Part shown: piece after piece, positions 7,819-37,087 of the stretch | Layout of the letters: every line of letters begins with the position of its first letter | How positions within the stretch are numbered: the stretch's first letter is position 1 | DNA from: a virus | Taxonomy: Duplodnaviria > Caudoviricetes | Strand: one strand, 5' to 3' | IMG/VR virus record: IMGVR_UViG_3300034411_000443 | Coordinates: 1 to 37,087 of that record | Length of the DNA: 37,087 nucleotides | Notes under the pieces: model-generated | Told to the model about the DNA's origin: nothing | Databases searched by the model: none | What the model saw: the letters and a program-made list of their open reading frames with translations, nothing else | Made by a program: the position numbers and the translations under genes

Positions 7819-7885
7819 GGATTACCTCCTTCCCATATTTCCAAAGAAAGATTACCAGGTGGATCGCTCGTTTCAGATATTTCAT
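7793..7885 (-). CDS. possible 30-aa peptide (MKYLKRAIHLVIFLWKYGKEVIRGYSNRKT)
   Basis: ATGA overlap with 7882..8166; bridges to the exonuclease gene. Confidence 0.4.
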   Translation of the reverse strand: MKYLKRAIHLVIFLWKYGKEVIRGYSNRKT

Positions 7886-8166
7886 CCTAATTTAGCCTCC
7901 ACTCTCTTTACTAAGGATTGCAGTGAAGAATCCGTCTCAATGTATCCGCTGTAATTCTTCCAAGTAGATGAAACTTGACTGTGGTCACGATCAAATGCTT
8001 TCCCAATTTCCACACAAGTTTTACCCGTCTTTAATCTGCTAAGATAAATAGCGATAGAACGGGCGAGGGATACTTGTTTAGCTCTCCCCCGCCCATCTAT
8101 ATCACTTACCTCAACACCACATTCGTCAGCAGAAACTCTTTTAATATCCTCGATGGTCATGCTCAC
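7882..8166 (-). CDS. stand-alone DnaA C-terminal (domain IV) HTH protein
   Basis: IEDIKRVSADECGV...DI.G..R.K.V.LARSIAIYLSR..TG.T..EIGKAF.RDHSQV closely follows the DnaA domain IV signature (RDHTTV in bacteria). Confidence 0.85.
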   Translation of the reverse strand: MSMTIEDIKRVSADECGVEVSDIDGRGRAKQVSLARSIAIYLSRLKTGKTCVEIGKAFDRDHSQVSSTWKNYSGYIETDSSLQSLVKRVEAKLG

Positions 8167-8969: not shown

Positions 8970-9428
8970 TTATTGATTAATAAGAAAATGTCTTAAAATG
9001 AGGATCGCATCGGCTGTCTTGAGGGTAATACCCTTAGTCGATGGGAAAAATTGCTTGGCATGGTTCGCCAAAACCTTTTTTCGCTTTCCCGAAGTTAACT
9101 TAGTCAACCCACTTAGTCCCTTTTGCCATTCCTGTGGGCGAACTAAAGTAAATGGAATTTCTGCCATTCGTAGAACGCCATTTATAAATCCGCATGATTT
9201 GCCTAATTTGAATGAGCTACTAGAAGGTATCATCTTACCCGCAAAAGGTGGGACCAATTCAACTACCGCCTCAATCGATGTAACAATTGGATGGTCTTGA
9301 AGGTCTTGGATGTGTTCGACAAATTCAAAGTCTTCATCGAGGGTGTGCAGTTTAATATCATGCAAACCACCCCAAGCGATTGCGTAACCTCCGCTCTTAC
9401 CTGGATCAATTCCGATGGTCAATTTCAT
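8970..9428 (-). CDS. RuvC-like Holliday junction resolvase
   Basis: IGIDPGKSGG, VVE, P.EWQK, ADAILI. Confidence 0.85.
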   Translation of the reverse strand: MKLTIGIDPGKSGGYAIAWGGLHDIKLHTLDEDFEFVEHIQDLQDHPIVTSIEAVVELVPPFAGKMIPSSSSFKLGKSCGFINGVLRMAEIPFTLVRPQEWQKGLSGLTKLTSGKRKKVLANHAKQFFPSTKGITLKTADAILILRHFLINQ

Positions 9429-10266: not shown

Positions 10267-10425
10267 ATTATCCTTTCTCTACTGCTTGCCTACATTAACG
10301 GCATGAAATGTCCCATGCAAGGACTAAAATGGCATAAAATGGACTAATTCTAACGCAAGGGTTAGCGAAATAAATATGTGGCTGTTAATACTTTACTCAT
10401 GTAGCTTTGGGTTATTTAATTGGGA

Positions 10426-10668
10426 ATGGTTAACGATCCTAATTCATTCGAGGCAAAGTTCCCAAAGTTTATCATCGGCGATACAGAGGATCAGACATTC
10501 GTTGTCCACCTCCATAGTCCAAAGTTTATAGCTGAACTGATAGAATCAGAAGATGGCGAAACATTCGACCCTACCTTTATCGATCCTCCTGGTAATGATC
10601 CCGCCCTACTAGCTAAGTTGATGCGAGAGGTCGGAGATTTCTATGTCGCTGAGATTGAGCGGGAATAG
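10426..10668 (+). CDS. hypothetical acidic protein
   Basis: Only plausible plus-strand gene here. It converges on the stop of the 1857-aa gene. ATG at 10426 lies 5 nt after a TTTACT-N17-TTTAAT promoter-like sequence. Confidence 0.7.
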   Translation: MVNDPNSFEAKFPKFIIGDTEDQTFVVHLHSPKFIAELIESEDGETFDPTFIDPPGNDPALLAKLMREVGDFYVAEIERE

Positions 10669-32362: not shown

Positions 32363-33997
32363 TTAATATCCCCCTCCGCCTGTTGATACCATTTCCTCCT
32401 CACTGAAATACTCGAAGTTCCCGATGCAAAAATATCTACAGACATCAACAAAATCTTTTGGGGCGGCCTTTAAATCACCAGGTACATAAGCTTGCAGACA
32501 ACTTATTAGATTTTGGCATTCATCCGAAAACATCAATTTGGGCTTATTATCCAAATCCATCTCTTTTTCCCGATCCCATGCGAGTAAATTGTTTATTGCC
32601 TGTAATCCTGTCTCGATATCGAGGGCTTCTGCCGGTTGAACGATGATATCTTCATCAGCTAAATCATCGATTATGTTGGAAGATCCTTCCGCCTTCTGAT
32701 AGCTCGCCGCTCCTAAACGGGGGTCGATTATGCGGATGACCTCACTATCCCCGCAAATCTTCTCCATTCGTCTGATCTCATCGGCATAATCCCGTAAGCC
32801 GTACCCGTTCGGTTGGGCAGCCTCGCCAGCGGATAATTTGTCCTTCGTTAAGTCAATCCATCCACCCCAGGTATCGAAGTCAGGAAATTCCTTTACCGCC
32901 CAGGCTACCCCGTGAGGATCGATGGCAAATAGGACCATTGTCCAAGGCTTCGCTCCCGCCGGATCAATCGATAATACCCAATTGGCATCCGTAAAATCAG
33001 GGAGTTTTTCCGATTGGACGAAGTTTTTATCGGTTAAATTGGGAAAGATTGCCCGACTTTGACGCACAGGGACTCCATACGCACGGCAAAGGATAGTTTC
33101 CCGCTTCTCCCCTTCTAATTGATTCTTCATCGCCGCCCAGCCTCCAAAGGGATTCGCCGCTGTGTGGAAATAAACCACTGAACTGGCTTTGCGGATGGGC
33201 TGTTGAACGAGGGGGACTTCTTCGCCGTTTAATAGGTCCGCCTTCGTTGATTCGACTGTTCTTGCTCCTGTTAGCATACTCTTAACGACCGAGTTCCATC
33301 CGTCTACTGCAGTGAAGGAAATTAAGCCACTTGCCGGGCGAACTACTCCATCATGTGGACTTTCATGCGACCTTGTCACACATCTAAATCTGAGCGTATT
33401 CACCCAAGACATTGGCACAAGCTCGTCAGCCCAAAATCCAATGTTGTGGGTGCCGGTTGCCGGTGGAGACGGACATCCGATTTCTCCACCTTCGATTGTG
33501 CTGATGTCCTGGCTCCAATTTCTAAAGATACACTCGGATCGATTAGGCAAAGTAAACTTTGAGGCCGTAAATCCATTACGAAGTGAATACATGACATATC
33601 CAACCTTACCTCTGCCTAACGATTTTAACTCTTTTGGGAGGTATTTAAATACGAGTTTCTGCTGAAATTGGATCGAATTTGCCGATGTTTCTGTTAAGCA
33701 CCAAATAATTGTGCCGGGATTTTCGACTAAAGTCTGAACCACTCTCTTCGCACAAAGCTCGGACTTTCCAGCCCTATTCCCTCCCATAAGCAGAATTTCC
33801 GAGTGAGTCTTTAGTTCCTTATCCGCTAATTTCCAAGTATCCAGTTCAAAGCCAAATCTATAAGGATCATCCTTTTCGAGCTTGATCGCTTCCTCCCTTT
33901 TCTCCCAATATGCGAGGATTGACTCGGGAGTCATGGACAGCATCTCTGATTTTGTCAGAGGCGGTAAGGCGGGGTGCGGTGTCCAAGTAAGTGGCAT
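32363..33997 (-). CDS. terL: terminase large subunit
   Basis: Walker A GGNRAGKS, Walker B FWADE, nuclease SIDP ... KDFVDVCRY. Start placed at ATG 33997. Confidence 0.92.
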   Translation of the reverse strand: MPLTWTPHPALPPLTKSEMLSMTPESILAYWEKREEAIKLEKDDPYRFGFELDTWKLADKELKTHSEILLMGGNRAGKSELCAKRVVQTLVENPGTIIWCLTETSANSIQFQQKLVFKYLPKELKSLGRGKVGYVMYSLRNGFTASKFTLPNRSECIFRNWSQDISTIEGGEIGCPSPPATGTHNIGFWADELVPMSWVNTLRFRCVTRSHESPHDGVVRPASGLISFTAVDGWNSVVKSMLTGARTVESTKADLLNGEEVPLVQQPIRKASSVVYFHTAANPFGGWAAMKNQLEGEKRETILCRAYGVPVRQSRAIFPNLTDKNFVQSEKLPDFTDANWVLSIDPAGAKPWTMVLFAIDPHGVAWAVKEFPDFDTWGGWIDLTKDKLSAGEAAQPNGYGLRDYADEIRRMEKICGDSEVIRIIDPRLGAASYQKAEGSSNIIDDLADEDIIVQPAEALDIETGLQAINNLLAWDREKEMDLDNKPKLMFSDECQNLISCLQAYVPGDLKAAPKDFVDVCRYFCIGNFEYFSEEEMVSTGGGGY

Positions 33998-34336
33998 TAG
34001 TCCGAGTGTACCATTTTTCAAGGCTGGTGGTACGCAATTGATGGAAATTAGTGAAATTTTGTTCGGACATACTGATTACCAAGCACTTACGAGGAGTGGA
34101 TTATCGATATCGATTAATCGTACCTTGCGTAAATGCGTTCGGGAGAAAAAAGCTTCGGAGGCGGGCAATTGGTGGAAATTTTTTTATGGGACACAATCGG
34201 TCTCGGTGATCGGCGGGCCGCCAAATCCGACCCCCCTCCCCCCCTGTTGGGGTTAACCGATTAAATTACACAACTTGCACGATCCTAGCCGTTTTGCGTA
34301 AGTAGTTGATTTACAAGGTACTTAATATTTAAACTA

Positions 34337-34364
34337 ATTTCGTAGAATAATGATTATGTCTAAT
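34337..34364 (+). other. dif-like XerC/XerD recombination site
   Basis: ATTTCGTAGAA-TAATGA-TTATGTCTAAT has the 11-6-11 layout. The right arm matches 9/11 of the E. coli XerD arm TTATGTTAAAT. Confidence 0.7.
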
Positions 34365-34403
34365 TGTACTTGCCAAATCCCTTATTGATAATTCATTATC
34401 AAT
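34364..34403 (+). promoter_or_regulatory. promoter TTGTAC-N17-GATAAT with overlapping perfect palindrome
   Basis: -35 at 34364-34369 and -10 at 34387-34392. ATTGATAAT-tc-ATTATCAAT at 34384-34403. Confidence 0.55.
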
Positions 34404-34420
34404 TGCTTGCACCGATAGAA

Positions 34421-34936
34421 ATGCCTACCGAAAAAAAGAGGATAACGATTGAAGCTGATAACCTTCCGGCTAACCTGACAGTCGAGGAGACTTGTCCATC
34501 AGTCTACACCGCTCAAGGTTTATTCGACAAGAGACCAGGAGACTATGCCAAGCTGGTTCAAATGCTTACCGATGGAATACCGGTCACTCGGATCAAGAAG
34601 GAACTGAAGGTATCCCACAATACTATCGCTGTGGTTCGGTCTCGAGAGAAAGAGGTAATCGAAGCCTCGAAGAAAGTAATGAGAGGATTGATCGGCCATG
34701 CTTCACAGCTTGCAGTCGAAAAGATGATCGAGAAGCTGGACAACGATGAAATACCAAACGGAGTCCTACCCATCGCTACCGGCATTCTAATCGACAAGCA
34801 TCGCCAGTATGAAGGTGAACCGACTCAGACTATCGAAGTGAAGAAATCTTTATCCCTGGATGAGATCCGAGCCGAGTTGGCGAATCTGAAAGATGAGAAA
34901 GTGGTTGAAGCTGAGATTACTGATGTGGAATCGTAA
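34421..34936 (+). CDS. HTH protein, candidate terminase small subunit
   Basis: HTH (GIPVTRIKKELKVSHNTIAVV), helical middle, ATGILIDK...GEPT motif seen in TerS-like proteins. Adjacent to terL. Confidence 0.55.
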   Translation: MPTEKKRITIEADNLPANLTVEETCPSVYTAQGLFDKRPGDYAKLVQMLTDGIPVTRIKKELKVSHNTIAVVRSREKEVIEASKKVMRGLIGHASQLAVEKMIEKLDNDEIPNGVLPIATGILIDKHRQYEGEPTQTIEVKKSLSLDEIRAELANLKDEKVVEAEITDVES

Positions 34937-34969: not shown

Positions 34970-35041
34970 CACTTACAACATTATTAAAAATAAATGTAAA
35001 ATATATCTTGCTTTTATGTATAGATAAGCTAGATTGAGGGT
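34970..35041 (+). promoter_or_regulatory. 72-bp promoter repeat, copy 1
   Basis: AT-rich UP-like tract, then TTGCTT-N16-TAGATT. 70/72 identical to 35942-36013. Confidence 0.8.
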
Positions 35042-35941: not shown

Positions 35942-36013
35942 CACTTACAAGATTATTAAAAATAAATGTAAAATATATCTTGCTTTTATGTATAGATAAG
36001 CTAGATTAAGGGT
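35942..36013 (+). promoter_or_regulatory. 72-bp promoter repeat, copy 2
   Basis: Near-identical to copy 1 and followed immediately by ATG 36014. Confidence 0.8.
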
Positions 36014-36626: not shown

Positions 36627-37073
36627 TCTCAAGATAGCCCGAATAATCGCCTAGAAGGCACACAGGGCTGTCTTTTGCCGCCTGACCTATATAATCTACC
36701 ACGCTAGGGTGCAAGACCGCCAATCCCGCCATTCCTTGGAATGCCCGATTTGCTGTGATTGAATTTAGTCCGAGTGATACCGAGTCCAGTATTACCTGAG
36801 TAATTACATTCAGGCTAGCTGGCAGATGTCTTGAACGAGTGATACCTGTTCTGTCGGTTAATCGGTTAGGCGAGTGGATCGGTTTTAATCTTCTTTTCGA
36901 GTGAGCTTGTAGGCTGGCAATGTAGTCCACCTGGTACGGCCGCCTAAAGCGGTTGGCGGACTGGTGCGTAAGCTTTAGCTTTTGGGCCGGCTTACGGGCC
37001 AAAGCATTAGTCCGAAGGAGGACTACTAACAGCCTGTATTTTTTCATGTTGGAGAGTACGACGAATTTAATAT

Positions 37074-37087
37074 TATATATATATATA
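37074..37087. repeat. (TA)7 run at right end
   Basis: Matches the left-end (TA)8. Confidence 0.9.

What the first reader, a model, noticed from the sequence alone, without database searches (positions are those of the whole stretch)
34337..34364. dif-like XerCD site in a tailed phage with no integrase
Seen: ATTTCGTAGAA-TAATGA-TTATGTCTAAT in non-coding DNA between the divergent terL and TerS-like genes. Known: dif sites have an 11-6-11 layout. The right arm is 9/11 to the E. coli XerD arm (TTATGTTAAAT). The left arm is 10/11 to the Acinetobacter pdif XerC arm (ATTTCGTATAA) and 9/11 to the B. subtilis dif left arm (ACTTCCTAGAA); all consensus sequences are recalled from memory. No tyrosine or serine recombinase ORF is visible in this apparently complete genome. 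Inference: the phage borrows host XerCD, either to integrate at chromosomal dif (best described for filamentous phages such as CTXphi, TLC and other IMEXs) or to resolve genome multimers next to the packaging region. Either role would be a poorly described lifestyle for a podovirus.
Basis: partly seen in the sequence, partly recalled or inferred. Interest (0 to 1): 0.85.

Follow-up and report, generated by a model that had tools for sequence, protein, structure and literature searches.

The report
Host dif site inside phage ends
A marine tailed virus with no detected recombinase gene carries a close copy of the chromosome-untangling (dif) site of Opitutales bacteria inside what is likely the short repeat at both ends of its DNA, so it probably borrows the host's XerC/XerD enzymes to close its own genome into a circle rather than to insert into the chromosome.

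Summary
The site is real (34337-34364, 11-6-11). It is present in 65 of 65 close relatives with enough flank. Its right arm equals that of the Opitutales chromosomal dif (pattern in 178 of 301 order genomes, 1 of 251 Pseudomonadota; at the GC-skew switch in 2 of 2 chromosomes tested), which points to the likely host. No integrase was found in the window, and no phage-host junction was seen anywhere. New here: the site lies inside a predicted ~215-bp direct terminal repeat (34199-34413). One complete relative carries that repeat, with the site, at both ends, and independent contigs stop at the same ATC^GGT boundaries. Distant relatives keep the end module without dif, or with dif inverted, so it is an optional cassette and not the packaging signal. 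Best reading (0.5, inferred): host XerCD recombines the two end copies and circularises the injected genome. VGJphi-like integration is not excluded (0.18). One relative has captured a host-type xerC. Not found in print in my searches. This scan noted the same arrangement before on other DNA (rV5-like coliphages); I confirmed the rV5 site but not its repeat.

The parts
34337..34364 (+). dif-like XerC/XerD core site, 11-6-11
   Evidence: arms match Opitutales dif
34337..34347 (+). left (XerC) arm; in relatives only C5, G6, A10, A11 are near-invariant
   Evidence: column counts on 30 distinct sites. XerC/XerD arm assignment by analogy to known dif (inferred)
34348..34353 (+). 6-bp central region TAATGA; matches the host-family spacers at positions 1, 2 and 6 only
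   Evidence: 1 of 132 phage contexts equals a host-family spacer, 87 of 132 differ at 3 positions
34354..34364 (+). right (XerD) arm, identical to the Opitutales chromosomal arm
34199..34413 (.). predicted 215-bp direct terminal repeat (physical genome ends) that contains the dif-like site
   Evidence: by homology to the 214-bp terminal repeat of G456 and clustered contig ends; not shown for the window itself (uninformative)
34196..34201 (+). left end motif ATC^GGT (predicted terminase cut)
   Evidence: present in 114 of 118 contexts; 3 of 14 left contig ends start here
34411..34416 (-). right end motif, the same ATC^GGT on the bottom strand, 49 nt from the XerD arm
   Evidence: CACC ends at +49 in 109 and +50 in 6 of 118 contexts; 4 of 13 right contig ends stop here
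34231..34244 (-). G-tract (C-tract on +) inside the repeat; contains a KOPS-like GGGNAGGG pointing away from the XerC arm
   Evidence: 114 of 114 predicted repeats; also present in dif-less relatives, so not tied to dif
34370..34402 (+). sigma70-like promoter candidate for the TerS-like gene, overlapped by a 7-2-7 palindrome that covaries in relatives (candidate operator)
   Evidence: promoter scan not above background (8 found, 5.6 +/- 2.3 expected)
32363..34021 (-). terminase large subunit (probable start ATG near 33997)
   Evidence: PHROG 2, E 3.9e-9; relatives align from residue 9
34421..34936 (+). 171-aa HTH-like protein, putative small terminase (label unconfirmed)
   Evidence: no family hit; viral HTH look-alikes; homologues lie co-oriented just upstream of terL in L091 and L134
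10374..10447 (.). empty recombinase slot: relative G010 carries an xerC-like gene exactly here; G459 and G006 carry integrase-like genes in the same part of the genome (between the large virion gene and the resolvase gene)
8970..9428 (-). Holliday junction resolvase; could finish a XerC-made junction (inferred)
   Evidence: PHROG 1770, E 1.3e-20

Best explanation
The 28-bp site matches the dif site of Opitutales bacteria and likely lies inside the phage's ~215-bp direct terminal repeat, so the injected linear DNA would carry two directly repeated copies that host XerC/XerD likely recombine to close the genome into a circle. Shown: the sequence match to the host site, its conservation, a relative with the site-bearing repeat at both ends, and clustered contig ends. 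Inferred: that these ends are the virion ends in the window's phage; that XerCD binds and recombines. Crossover between the copies would give a unit-length circle with one repeat plus a 215-bp linear leftover. The left copy's XerD arm faces the genome interior, where FtsK could load; the right copy has only 49 bp on that side. This fits in vitro data that FtsK loading on one XerD-side arm is enough (PMC2673442). Alternatively XerC could make a Holliday junction that the phage resolvase finishes, as at cer. The same reaction between two molecules would join genomes head to tail, and between sister copies would resolve multimers. It would work like P1 loxP/Cre (recalled), but with a host enzyme.
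For: Host match: pattern in 178 of 301 order genomes (9 reversed-pattern control hits, my count) and 66 of 76 family genomes (control 0), against 1 of 251 Pseudomonadota. GC skew and GGGNAGGG polarity flip at the site in 2 of 2 long chromosomal contigs. Ends: G456 (37,447 bp) has a 214-bp terminal repeat with 1 mismatch that holds the site at both ends. 4 of 13 right contig ends fall 49-50 nt past the XerD arm and 3 of 14 left ends start at the GGTC/GTC boundary; without G456, 3 of 11 (P 6e-5) and 2 of 13 (P 4e-3). Both boundaries read ATC^GGT; the ATC on the right was not demanded by the pattern and is 100% conserved in 114 contexts. Sequence is conserved beyond both boundaries, so allele branching does not explain the stops. 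Relatives at 54-59% TerL identity keep the end module without dif (L150, L155, L157, L086), and L153 has dif inverted inside the same module; two copies of a terminal repeat stay direct repeats in either orientation. 11 of 14 near-complete records have the site and no tyrosine recombinase; G459 has both the site and an integrase-like gene. G010 has the site and an XerC-clade gene. In other phages, 25 of 43 dif-like loci have a terminase gene within 1.5 kb (20 belong to one clade). Coliphage rV5 has such a site in its gene-free gap.
Against: No binding or recombination data. The repeat is shown in one record; the other support is 5 further contig ends, and no raw reads were available. The site is dispensable in part of the family: not found in 13 of 18 loci at <=62% TerL identity with >=480 nt upstream (my count; some may be too short, e.g. 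L092; for whole records). The phage encodes an exonuclease and a resolvase, so it may join ends without Xer. The XerC arm is more variable than the host's (25 inner-arm variants in 132 contexts against 2 in 31). Self-recombination needs no particular spacer, yet the spacer is conserved (0.84 against 0.43-0.48 in the left flank); a leftward -10 candidate overlaps it. Linkage does not drop across the site (Spearman 0.25 against 0.31 and 0.32), so there is no sign of an inter-phage crossover hotspot. KOPS enrichment on one strand (8 against 2.8, P 0.007) is matched by 2 of 8 control octamers. FtsK is septum-bound (PMC5357621), so its access to incoming DNA is uncertain.
Confidence: 0.5

Rival explanations
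1. The site is attP: host XerCD integrates the circularised phage at the chromosomal dif (between lepB and malQ in the likely host family). XerC would exchange first over the two matching spacer bases, and replication or the phage resolvase would finish, as for VGJphi.
For: No integrase in 11 of 13 site-bearing near-complete records, and the one complete record without the site has an integrase-like gene. The spacer matches the host on the XerC side and differs towards the XerD side, as described for VGJphi attP (PMC5357621 passages). Prophages that keep dif motifs are rarely detected (PMC7062461 passage), and most contigs here come from viral collections, where attP is the expected form. A weak repressor-like HTH gene is present. 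In a second phage clade 16 of 45 spacers equal host-family spacers. Two earlier AI notes report tailed prophages at dif in other bacteria (not tested here).
Against: No junction: the TerS-like gene lies beyond the site in 56 of 56 metagenome contigs and terL in 65 of 65 TerS-anchored contigs. 29 of 29 family dif loci keep lepB and malQ adjacent, and no window protein hits 74 host dif loci. Of 401 order genomes only G001 has a close terL, on an unbroken phage contig beside an empty chromosomal dif. G459 has both the site and an integrase-like gene. Integration does not explain why the site stays 49-50 nt from the genome end.
Confidence: 0.18
2. The site serves only to resolve dimers or catenanes of replicating phage circles (a plasmid cer/psi-like role), not to join the ends of the incoming genome.
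For: It uses the native activity of XerCD; sister copies always share the spacer. The difference from the host spacer would limit integration.
Against: Resolution would work from any position, so it does not explain confinement to the end module. A lytic phage needs concatemers for packaging. No cer-type accessory region was identified.
Confidence: 0.12
3. XerC/XerD (and FtsK) bind the ends without productive crossover: a protective cap against host exonucleases, a decoy that drains XerCD and blocks host chromosome segregation, or a regulator of the divergent promoters beside it.
For: The XerD arm is invariant while the XerC arm drifts. The site sits 49 nt from the end and overlaps or abuts promoter candidates. 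No crossover hotspot is visible.
Against: The 6-bp spacing and the C5/G6/A10/A11 pattern are kept in all 30 distinct sites, as two-protein synapsis needs. A relative captured a whole xerC gene; its activity was not tested.
Confidence: 0.14
4. The motif is a phage promoter or terminase-binding site and resembles dif by chance.
For: AT-rich region; a -10 candidate overlaps the spacer; the site lies in the packaging module.
Against: An 11-of-11 match to a lineage-specific chromosomal arm. Orientation and position change relative to terL and terS (L091, L134, L153). Relatives package with the same end module and no such site.
Confidence: 0.04

Closest known systems
Chromosomal dif/XerC/XerD/FtsK dimer resolution (PMC5357621 passages; dif predicted in 3 of 3 Verrucomicrobia, PMC3025954 passages)
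   Same: 11-6-11 layout; right arm identical to the Opitutales site; hosts encode XerC and XerD
   Different: On a phage, in a predicted terminal repeat; different spacer; XerC arm more variable; activity untested
IMEXs: VGJphi, CTXphi, TLCphi, GGI (PMC5357621 passages), dif-type double jelly-roll prophages (PMC12715192 passages), enterogokushoviruses (PMC7062461 passages)
   Same: A virus without its own integrase carrying one dif-like site; spacer mismatch towards the XerD side as in VGJphi attP
   Different: Those are non-tailed phages or islands shown integrated at dif. This is a 37-kb tailed phage with PolA and primase; no integrated copy was found. TLC and GGI have a degenerate XerD arm, whereas here the XerD arm is the invariant one
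Phage P1 loxP/Cre cyclisation of the terminally redundant genome (recalled; searches and passages gave no confirming text)
   Same: A tyrosine-recombinase site placed so that it occurs twice in the virion DNA
   Different: P1 encodes Cre and packages by headful; here the enzyme would be the host's and the ends appear fixed
T7/T3-type short direct terminal repeats, 160 and 231 bp (PMC5557969 passages)
   Same: Short fixed repeat of similar size (predicted 180-249 bp, median 212, n=114)
   Different: The repeat holds a host recombinase site; both boundaries share an inverted ATC^GGT motif
Plasmid Xer sites cer (ColE1) and psi (pSC101) (PMC5357621 passages)
   Same: Host XerCD acting on an extrachromosomal replicon; at cer XerC makes a junction finished by a resolvase
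   Different: No ~180-bp PepA/ArgR accessory region identified; 6-bp rather than 8-bp centre; viral ends

Membership tests
dif-type XerC/XerD core site | two 11-bp arms separated by 6 bp, non-coding | tested here: met
dif-type XerC/XerD core site | arms match the cognate host's chromosomal dif | tested here: met
   right arm 11 of 11; inner left arm 4 of 7 in the window, 7 of 7 in 22 of 132 relative contexts; host site at the skew switch. Host identity itself is inferred from MAG bins and the arm
dif-type XerC/XerD core site | cooperative XerC/XerD binding and strand exchange | not testable with these tools
   needs gel shift and recombination assay
IMEX (integrative mobile element exploiting Xer) | no own integrase | tested here: met
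   window; but 2 of 13 site-bearing near-complete records carry a tyrosine recombinase
IMEX (integrative mobile element exploiting Xer) | found integrated at host dif with attL/attR | tested here: inconclusive
   no junction; MAGs and viral collections are poor at showing prophages
IMEX (integrative mobile element exploiting Xer) | central-region homology enough for the first strand exchange | tested here: inconclusive
   2 bp on the XerC side and 1 bp on the XerD side match host spacers; fits the VGJphi type, not the TLC/GGI type
Short direct-terminal-repeat phage (T7-like ends) | same short repeat at both physical ends | tested here: met
   met in relative G456 (214 bp, 1 mismatch) with independent contig ends at both boundaries; transferred to the window by homology
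Short direct-terminal-repeat phage (T7-like ends) | read-start peaks and doubled coverage over the repeat | not testable with these tools
   only assembled contigs were served
P1 loxP/Cre-like cyclisation | site present twice in virion DNA in direct repeat | tested here: met
   G456 positions 50-73 and 37283-37306, same strand
P1 loxP/Cre-like cyclisation | phage-encoded cognate recombinase | tested here: not met
   absent from the window and from 11 of 13 site-bearing near-complete records; so it may work like it, but is not a member
cer/psi plasmid resolution sites | ~180-bp accessory region bound by PepA/ArgR or ArcA | not tested
   left flank is poorly conserved (0.43-0.48); no binding-site search done

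The most novel reading that the evidence does not exclude
Tailed phages with fixed ends have repeatedly placed a copy of their host's dif inside the terminal repeat, so that host XerCD, activated by FtsK travelling along the injected DNA, circularises or concatemerises the genome: a host-powered lox/Cre shared by this Opitutales clade, a second Opitutales-type clade and rV5-like coliphages, with occasional capture of xerC itself.
Probability: 0.4. Interest if true: 0.88.

Novelty: new variant of a known kind. Interest (0 to 1): 0.72.

Why it matters
In the papers I could search, Xer hijacking is described as a way for non-tailed phages and islands to integrate. A dif site inside the terminal repeat would give tailed, apparently lytic phages a host-enzyme route to circularise or concatemerise, a step that is poorly understood for phages with short fixed ends. 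It predicts xerC, xerD and ftsK as host factors, which can be tested directly with rV5-like phages in laboratory E. coli. The lineage-specific arm also works as a host tag for uncultured phages (here Opitutales) and as a marker of genome ends in assemblies.

Tried and rejected
(1) Integration junctions: terL-anchored, TerS-anchored and genome scans gave none. Twenty stretches around distant terL homologues in 8 Opitutales genomes had no dif-like site (best score 16.5). (2) Two-site contigs in G436 and G307 looked like elements inserted at dif, but the second match lies inside a host gene: rejected. (3) Laid contigs of 8 runs list no host junction at the site, though the tables were cut. The four possible source runs pass through the region in one contig, so they say nothing on ends. 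One contig over the repeat in run X6 had higher depth (71 against 27-54 in the other listed pieces) but X5 did not; not used. (4) Crossover-hotspot test: negative. (5) KOPS polarity: not specific. (6) Promoter scan: background level. (7) 'The spacer always avoids the host's' fails as a general rule: L153 and 16 of 45 contexts of the second clade equal host-family spacers. (8) For the second clade I could not show that the site lies in a terminal repeat; contig ends did not cluster near it. (9) Terminal overlaps of G460, G463, G006 and G010 (37-134 bp, at unrelated places) were treated as assembly overlaps. (10) No tRNA gene in the window. No cultured close relative in the phage collection (best 31%); verrucophage P8625 (PMC4642752 passages) was not examined for the site. 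(11) The Xer tree used two truncated host ORFs (G002, G003) and serves only to separate XerC from XerD.

Full report
Observation. The 28-mer is at 34337-34364 as reported, in non-coding DNA between terL (minus strand) and a divergent 171-aa ORF. The window is a 37,087-bp IMG/VR record rated 100% complete. It encodes an SU10-type capsid, a tail collar protein, PolA, a primase/helicase, an exonuclease and a Holliday junction resolvase. No integrase was found among 51 ORFs, nor by six-frame search for PF00589 or PF00239. The TerS label for the divergent ORF rests on position and HTH-type look-alikes only.

Conservation. Of 80 IMG/VR relatives with TerL 84-96% identical, 69 carry one such site on the same strand. 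That includes all 65 with at least 480 nt upstream of terL; the 11 misses have 351 nt or less. Across 30 distinct sites the right arm is TTATGTC(T/C)AAT, and the left arm keeps mainly C5, G6, A10 and A11. Metagenome contigs, which overlap the IMG/VR set, gave 56 of 56. In 119 distinct contexts the left flank is 43-48% conserved per column, the left arm 70% and the spacer 84% (the right arm was fixed by the search pattern). At 62% TerL identity or less the site becomes patchy: 5 of 18 loci with at least 480 nt upstream have it (my count).

Host. The three closest terL hits among species-representative genomes are phage contigs in Opitutales/Verrucomicrobiota MAGs (95, 84, 70%). Each of these MAGs has a second match of the pattern among housekeeping genes. 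The pattern occurs, nearly always once, in 178 of 301 genomes of that order and 66 of 76 of the family, against 1 of 251 Pseudomonadota with a slightly stricter pattern. In two long chromosomal contigs GC skew changes from positive to negative at the site, and GGGNAGGG octamers converge on it (G162: 9:0 before, 2:10 after; G070: 8:1 before, 0:8 after). This is the chromosomal dif. The phage right arm equals it; the window's inner left arm matches 4 of 7; the spacer matches only at positions 1, 2 and 6. One of 132 phage contexts has a host-family spacer and 87 differ at three positions. These hosts encode XerC and XerD. The host call rests on binning and on the arm, not on spacers or isolates.

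Integration. No phage-host junction was found. The TerS-like gene lay beyond the site in 56 of 56 metagenome contigs, and terL in 65 of 65 TerS-anchored contigs. All 29 family dif loci fetched (of 66 genomes with a match) keep lepB and malQ adjacent, and no window protein hits 74 host dif loci. Of 401 order genomes, 10 have a TerL match and only G001's is close; it sits on an unbroken phage contig while the chromosomal dif is empty. Of 14 records at least 90% complete, the window included, 13 have the site and 3 have a tyrosine recombinase: G010 (site plus XerC-like), G459 (site plus integrase-like) and G006 (integrase-like, no site). These negatives are soft: most contigs are viral, VGJphi integrates with a spacer that differs on the XerD side (PMC5357621, passages), and dif-retaining prophages are rarely caught (PMC7062461, passages).

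The site lies in the terminal repeat. Record G456 (37,447 bp, TerL 88%) has the site at both ends, within a 214-bp direct repeat with one mismatch. The repeat starts at GTC just after ATCG and ends at CACC just before GAT; the window equivalent is 34199-34413. Among distinct contig ends within 280 nt of the site, 4 of 13 on the right stop 49-50 nt past the XerD arm, and 3 of 14 on the left start at the GGTC/GTC boundary. Leaving out G456 and one non-family locus, this is 3 of 11 (P 6e-5) and 2 of 13 (P 4e-3) under a uniform model. The two boundaries are inverted copies of ATC^GGT; on the right the ATC was not part of the pattern and is present in all 114 contexts. Sequence stays conserved past both boundaries, so a branch between alleles would stop later. 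The distance from XerD arm to right end is 49 nt in 109 and 50 nt in 6 of 118 contexts. Predicted repeats are 180-249 bp, like the 160 and 231 bp of T7 and T3 (PMC5557969, passages). For the window itself the ends are inferred: only assembled contigs were served, and they run through the region.

An optional cassette. Relatives at 54-59% TerL identity (L150, L155, L157, L086) keep the same end module, with a T-run, a C-tract and the CACC motif before the TerS-like gene, but have no dif. L153, at 58%, has dif inside that module, inverted, with a host-identical spacer. So the site is not the cut signal, nor a promoter for a fixed gene. G010 and two partial records carry an xerC-like gene, inserted where the window has about 70 bp (10374-10447). 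It groups with host XerC, not XerD (split supported 100/100).

Beyond this clade. About 640 stored IMG/VR stretches match the pattern; 32 of the 120 returned hit the window's TerL or TerS-like protein, some only distantly. From the first 80 loci I took 46 non-family loci with a dif-like left arm and scanned 81 of their 109 ORFs, from 43 loci: 25 have a terminase gene within 1.5 kb, 20 of them from one clade. In that clade 55 of 80 loci have the site, in both orientations, and 16 of 45 distinct spacers equal host-family spacers; I could not place it in a terminal repeat. That this gap holds the rV5 terminal repeat comes from earlier AI notes and was not checked.

Mechanism (inferred). A site inside a terminal repeat is present twice, in direct repeat, on the injected DNA. 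One crossover gives a unit circle and a 215-bp leftover; between molecules it gives head-to-tail concatemers. The left copy's XerD side faces the genome interior and the right copy has 49 bp. In vitro, FtsK loading on a single XerD-side arm suffices and the partner may carry 3 bp (PMC2673442, abstract and passages). KOPS-like octamers in the window point towards that arm (9 against 1), but 2 of 8 control octamers are as enriched, so this is weak. Against my reading: no crossover hotspot is visible, the spacer is more conserved than self-recombination needs, the XerC arm drifts, and part of the family does without the site. I put end-joining at 0.5, integration at 0.18, binding without crossover at 0.14, multimer resolution alone at 0.12 and coincidence at 0.04.

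Known systems and novelty. It would work like P1 loxP/Cre (recalled; searches gave no confirming text) but fails that membership, having no own recombinase. It is not shown to be an IMEX. Eight searches (listings and abstract starts only) returned no paper on a dif site in the terminal repeat of a tailed phage. Passages of 10.1101/633727 and PMC12715192 concern non-tailed phages; passages of PMC3025954 confirm that dif is predicted in Verrucomicrobia but I did not open its supplement. The library lacks most subscription journals. This scan had noted dif beside terminase genes in other tailed phages and inside rV5 terminal repeats. The notes moved me towards self-recombination; my terminal-repeat lead preceded. 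Verdict: a real, conserved host-type Xer site in the predicted genome ends; new variant of a known kind; interest 0.72.

Noticed in passing
L166:1456-2421 (G010); also L214, L215: A close relative carries a 321-aa XerC-clade recombinase inserted in a slot that is empty in the window (10374-10447); G459 and G006 carry integrase-like genes in the same part of the genome.
   Followed up: partly
window 34385-34402: A 7-2-7 palindrome over the -10 of the candidate TerS-gene promoter covaries in relatives; it resembles a Fur box (recalled, 7-1-7) and may be an operator.
   Followed up: no
window 34970-35041 and 35942-36013: A 72-bp direct repeat (97%) upstream of small plus-strand ORFs, likely an early promoter and a hotspot for gene gain and loss.
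   Followed up: no
window 34196-34201 and 34411-34416: Both predicted genome ends are cut in the same inverted ATC^GGT motif, a symmetric design for a direct-repeat phage.
   Followed up: partly
L719-L798: A second, unrelated marine phage clade (PHROG 15524/38 TerL; 433 relatives found) carries the same Opitutales-type site after terL in both orientations.
   Followed up: partly
window 37070-37087: The record breaks at a TA run where the two transcription directions converge; this is likely an assembly break and not the virion end.
   Followed up: no
window 7882-8166 (-): A small ORF with a DnaA C-terminal DNA-binding domain (PF08299, E 1.4e-16), another host chromosome-cycle mimic.
   Followed up: no
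L366 (G001:C43:2506-3399): G001 has a second XerC-like gene about 20 kb from its chromosomal dif on the same contig.
   Followed up: no
L800:5143-5170 (DQ832317 about 105,142-105,169): Coliphage rV5 carries an unannotated dif-like site in its 2.6-kb gene-free gap.
   Followed up: partly
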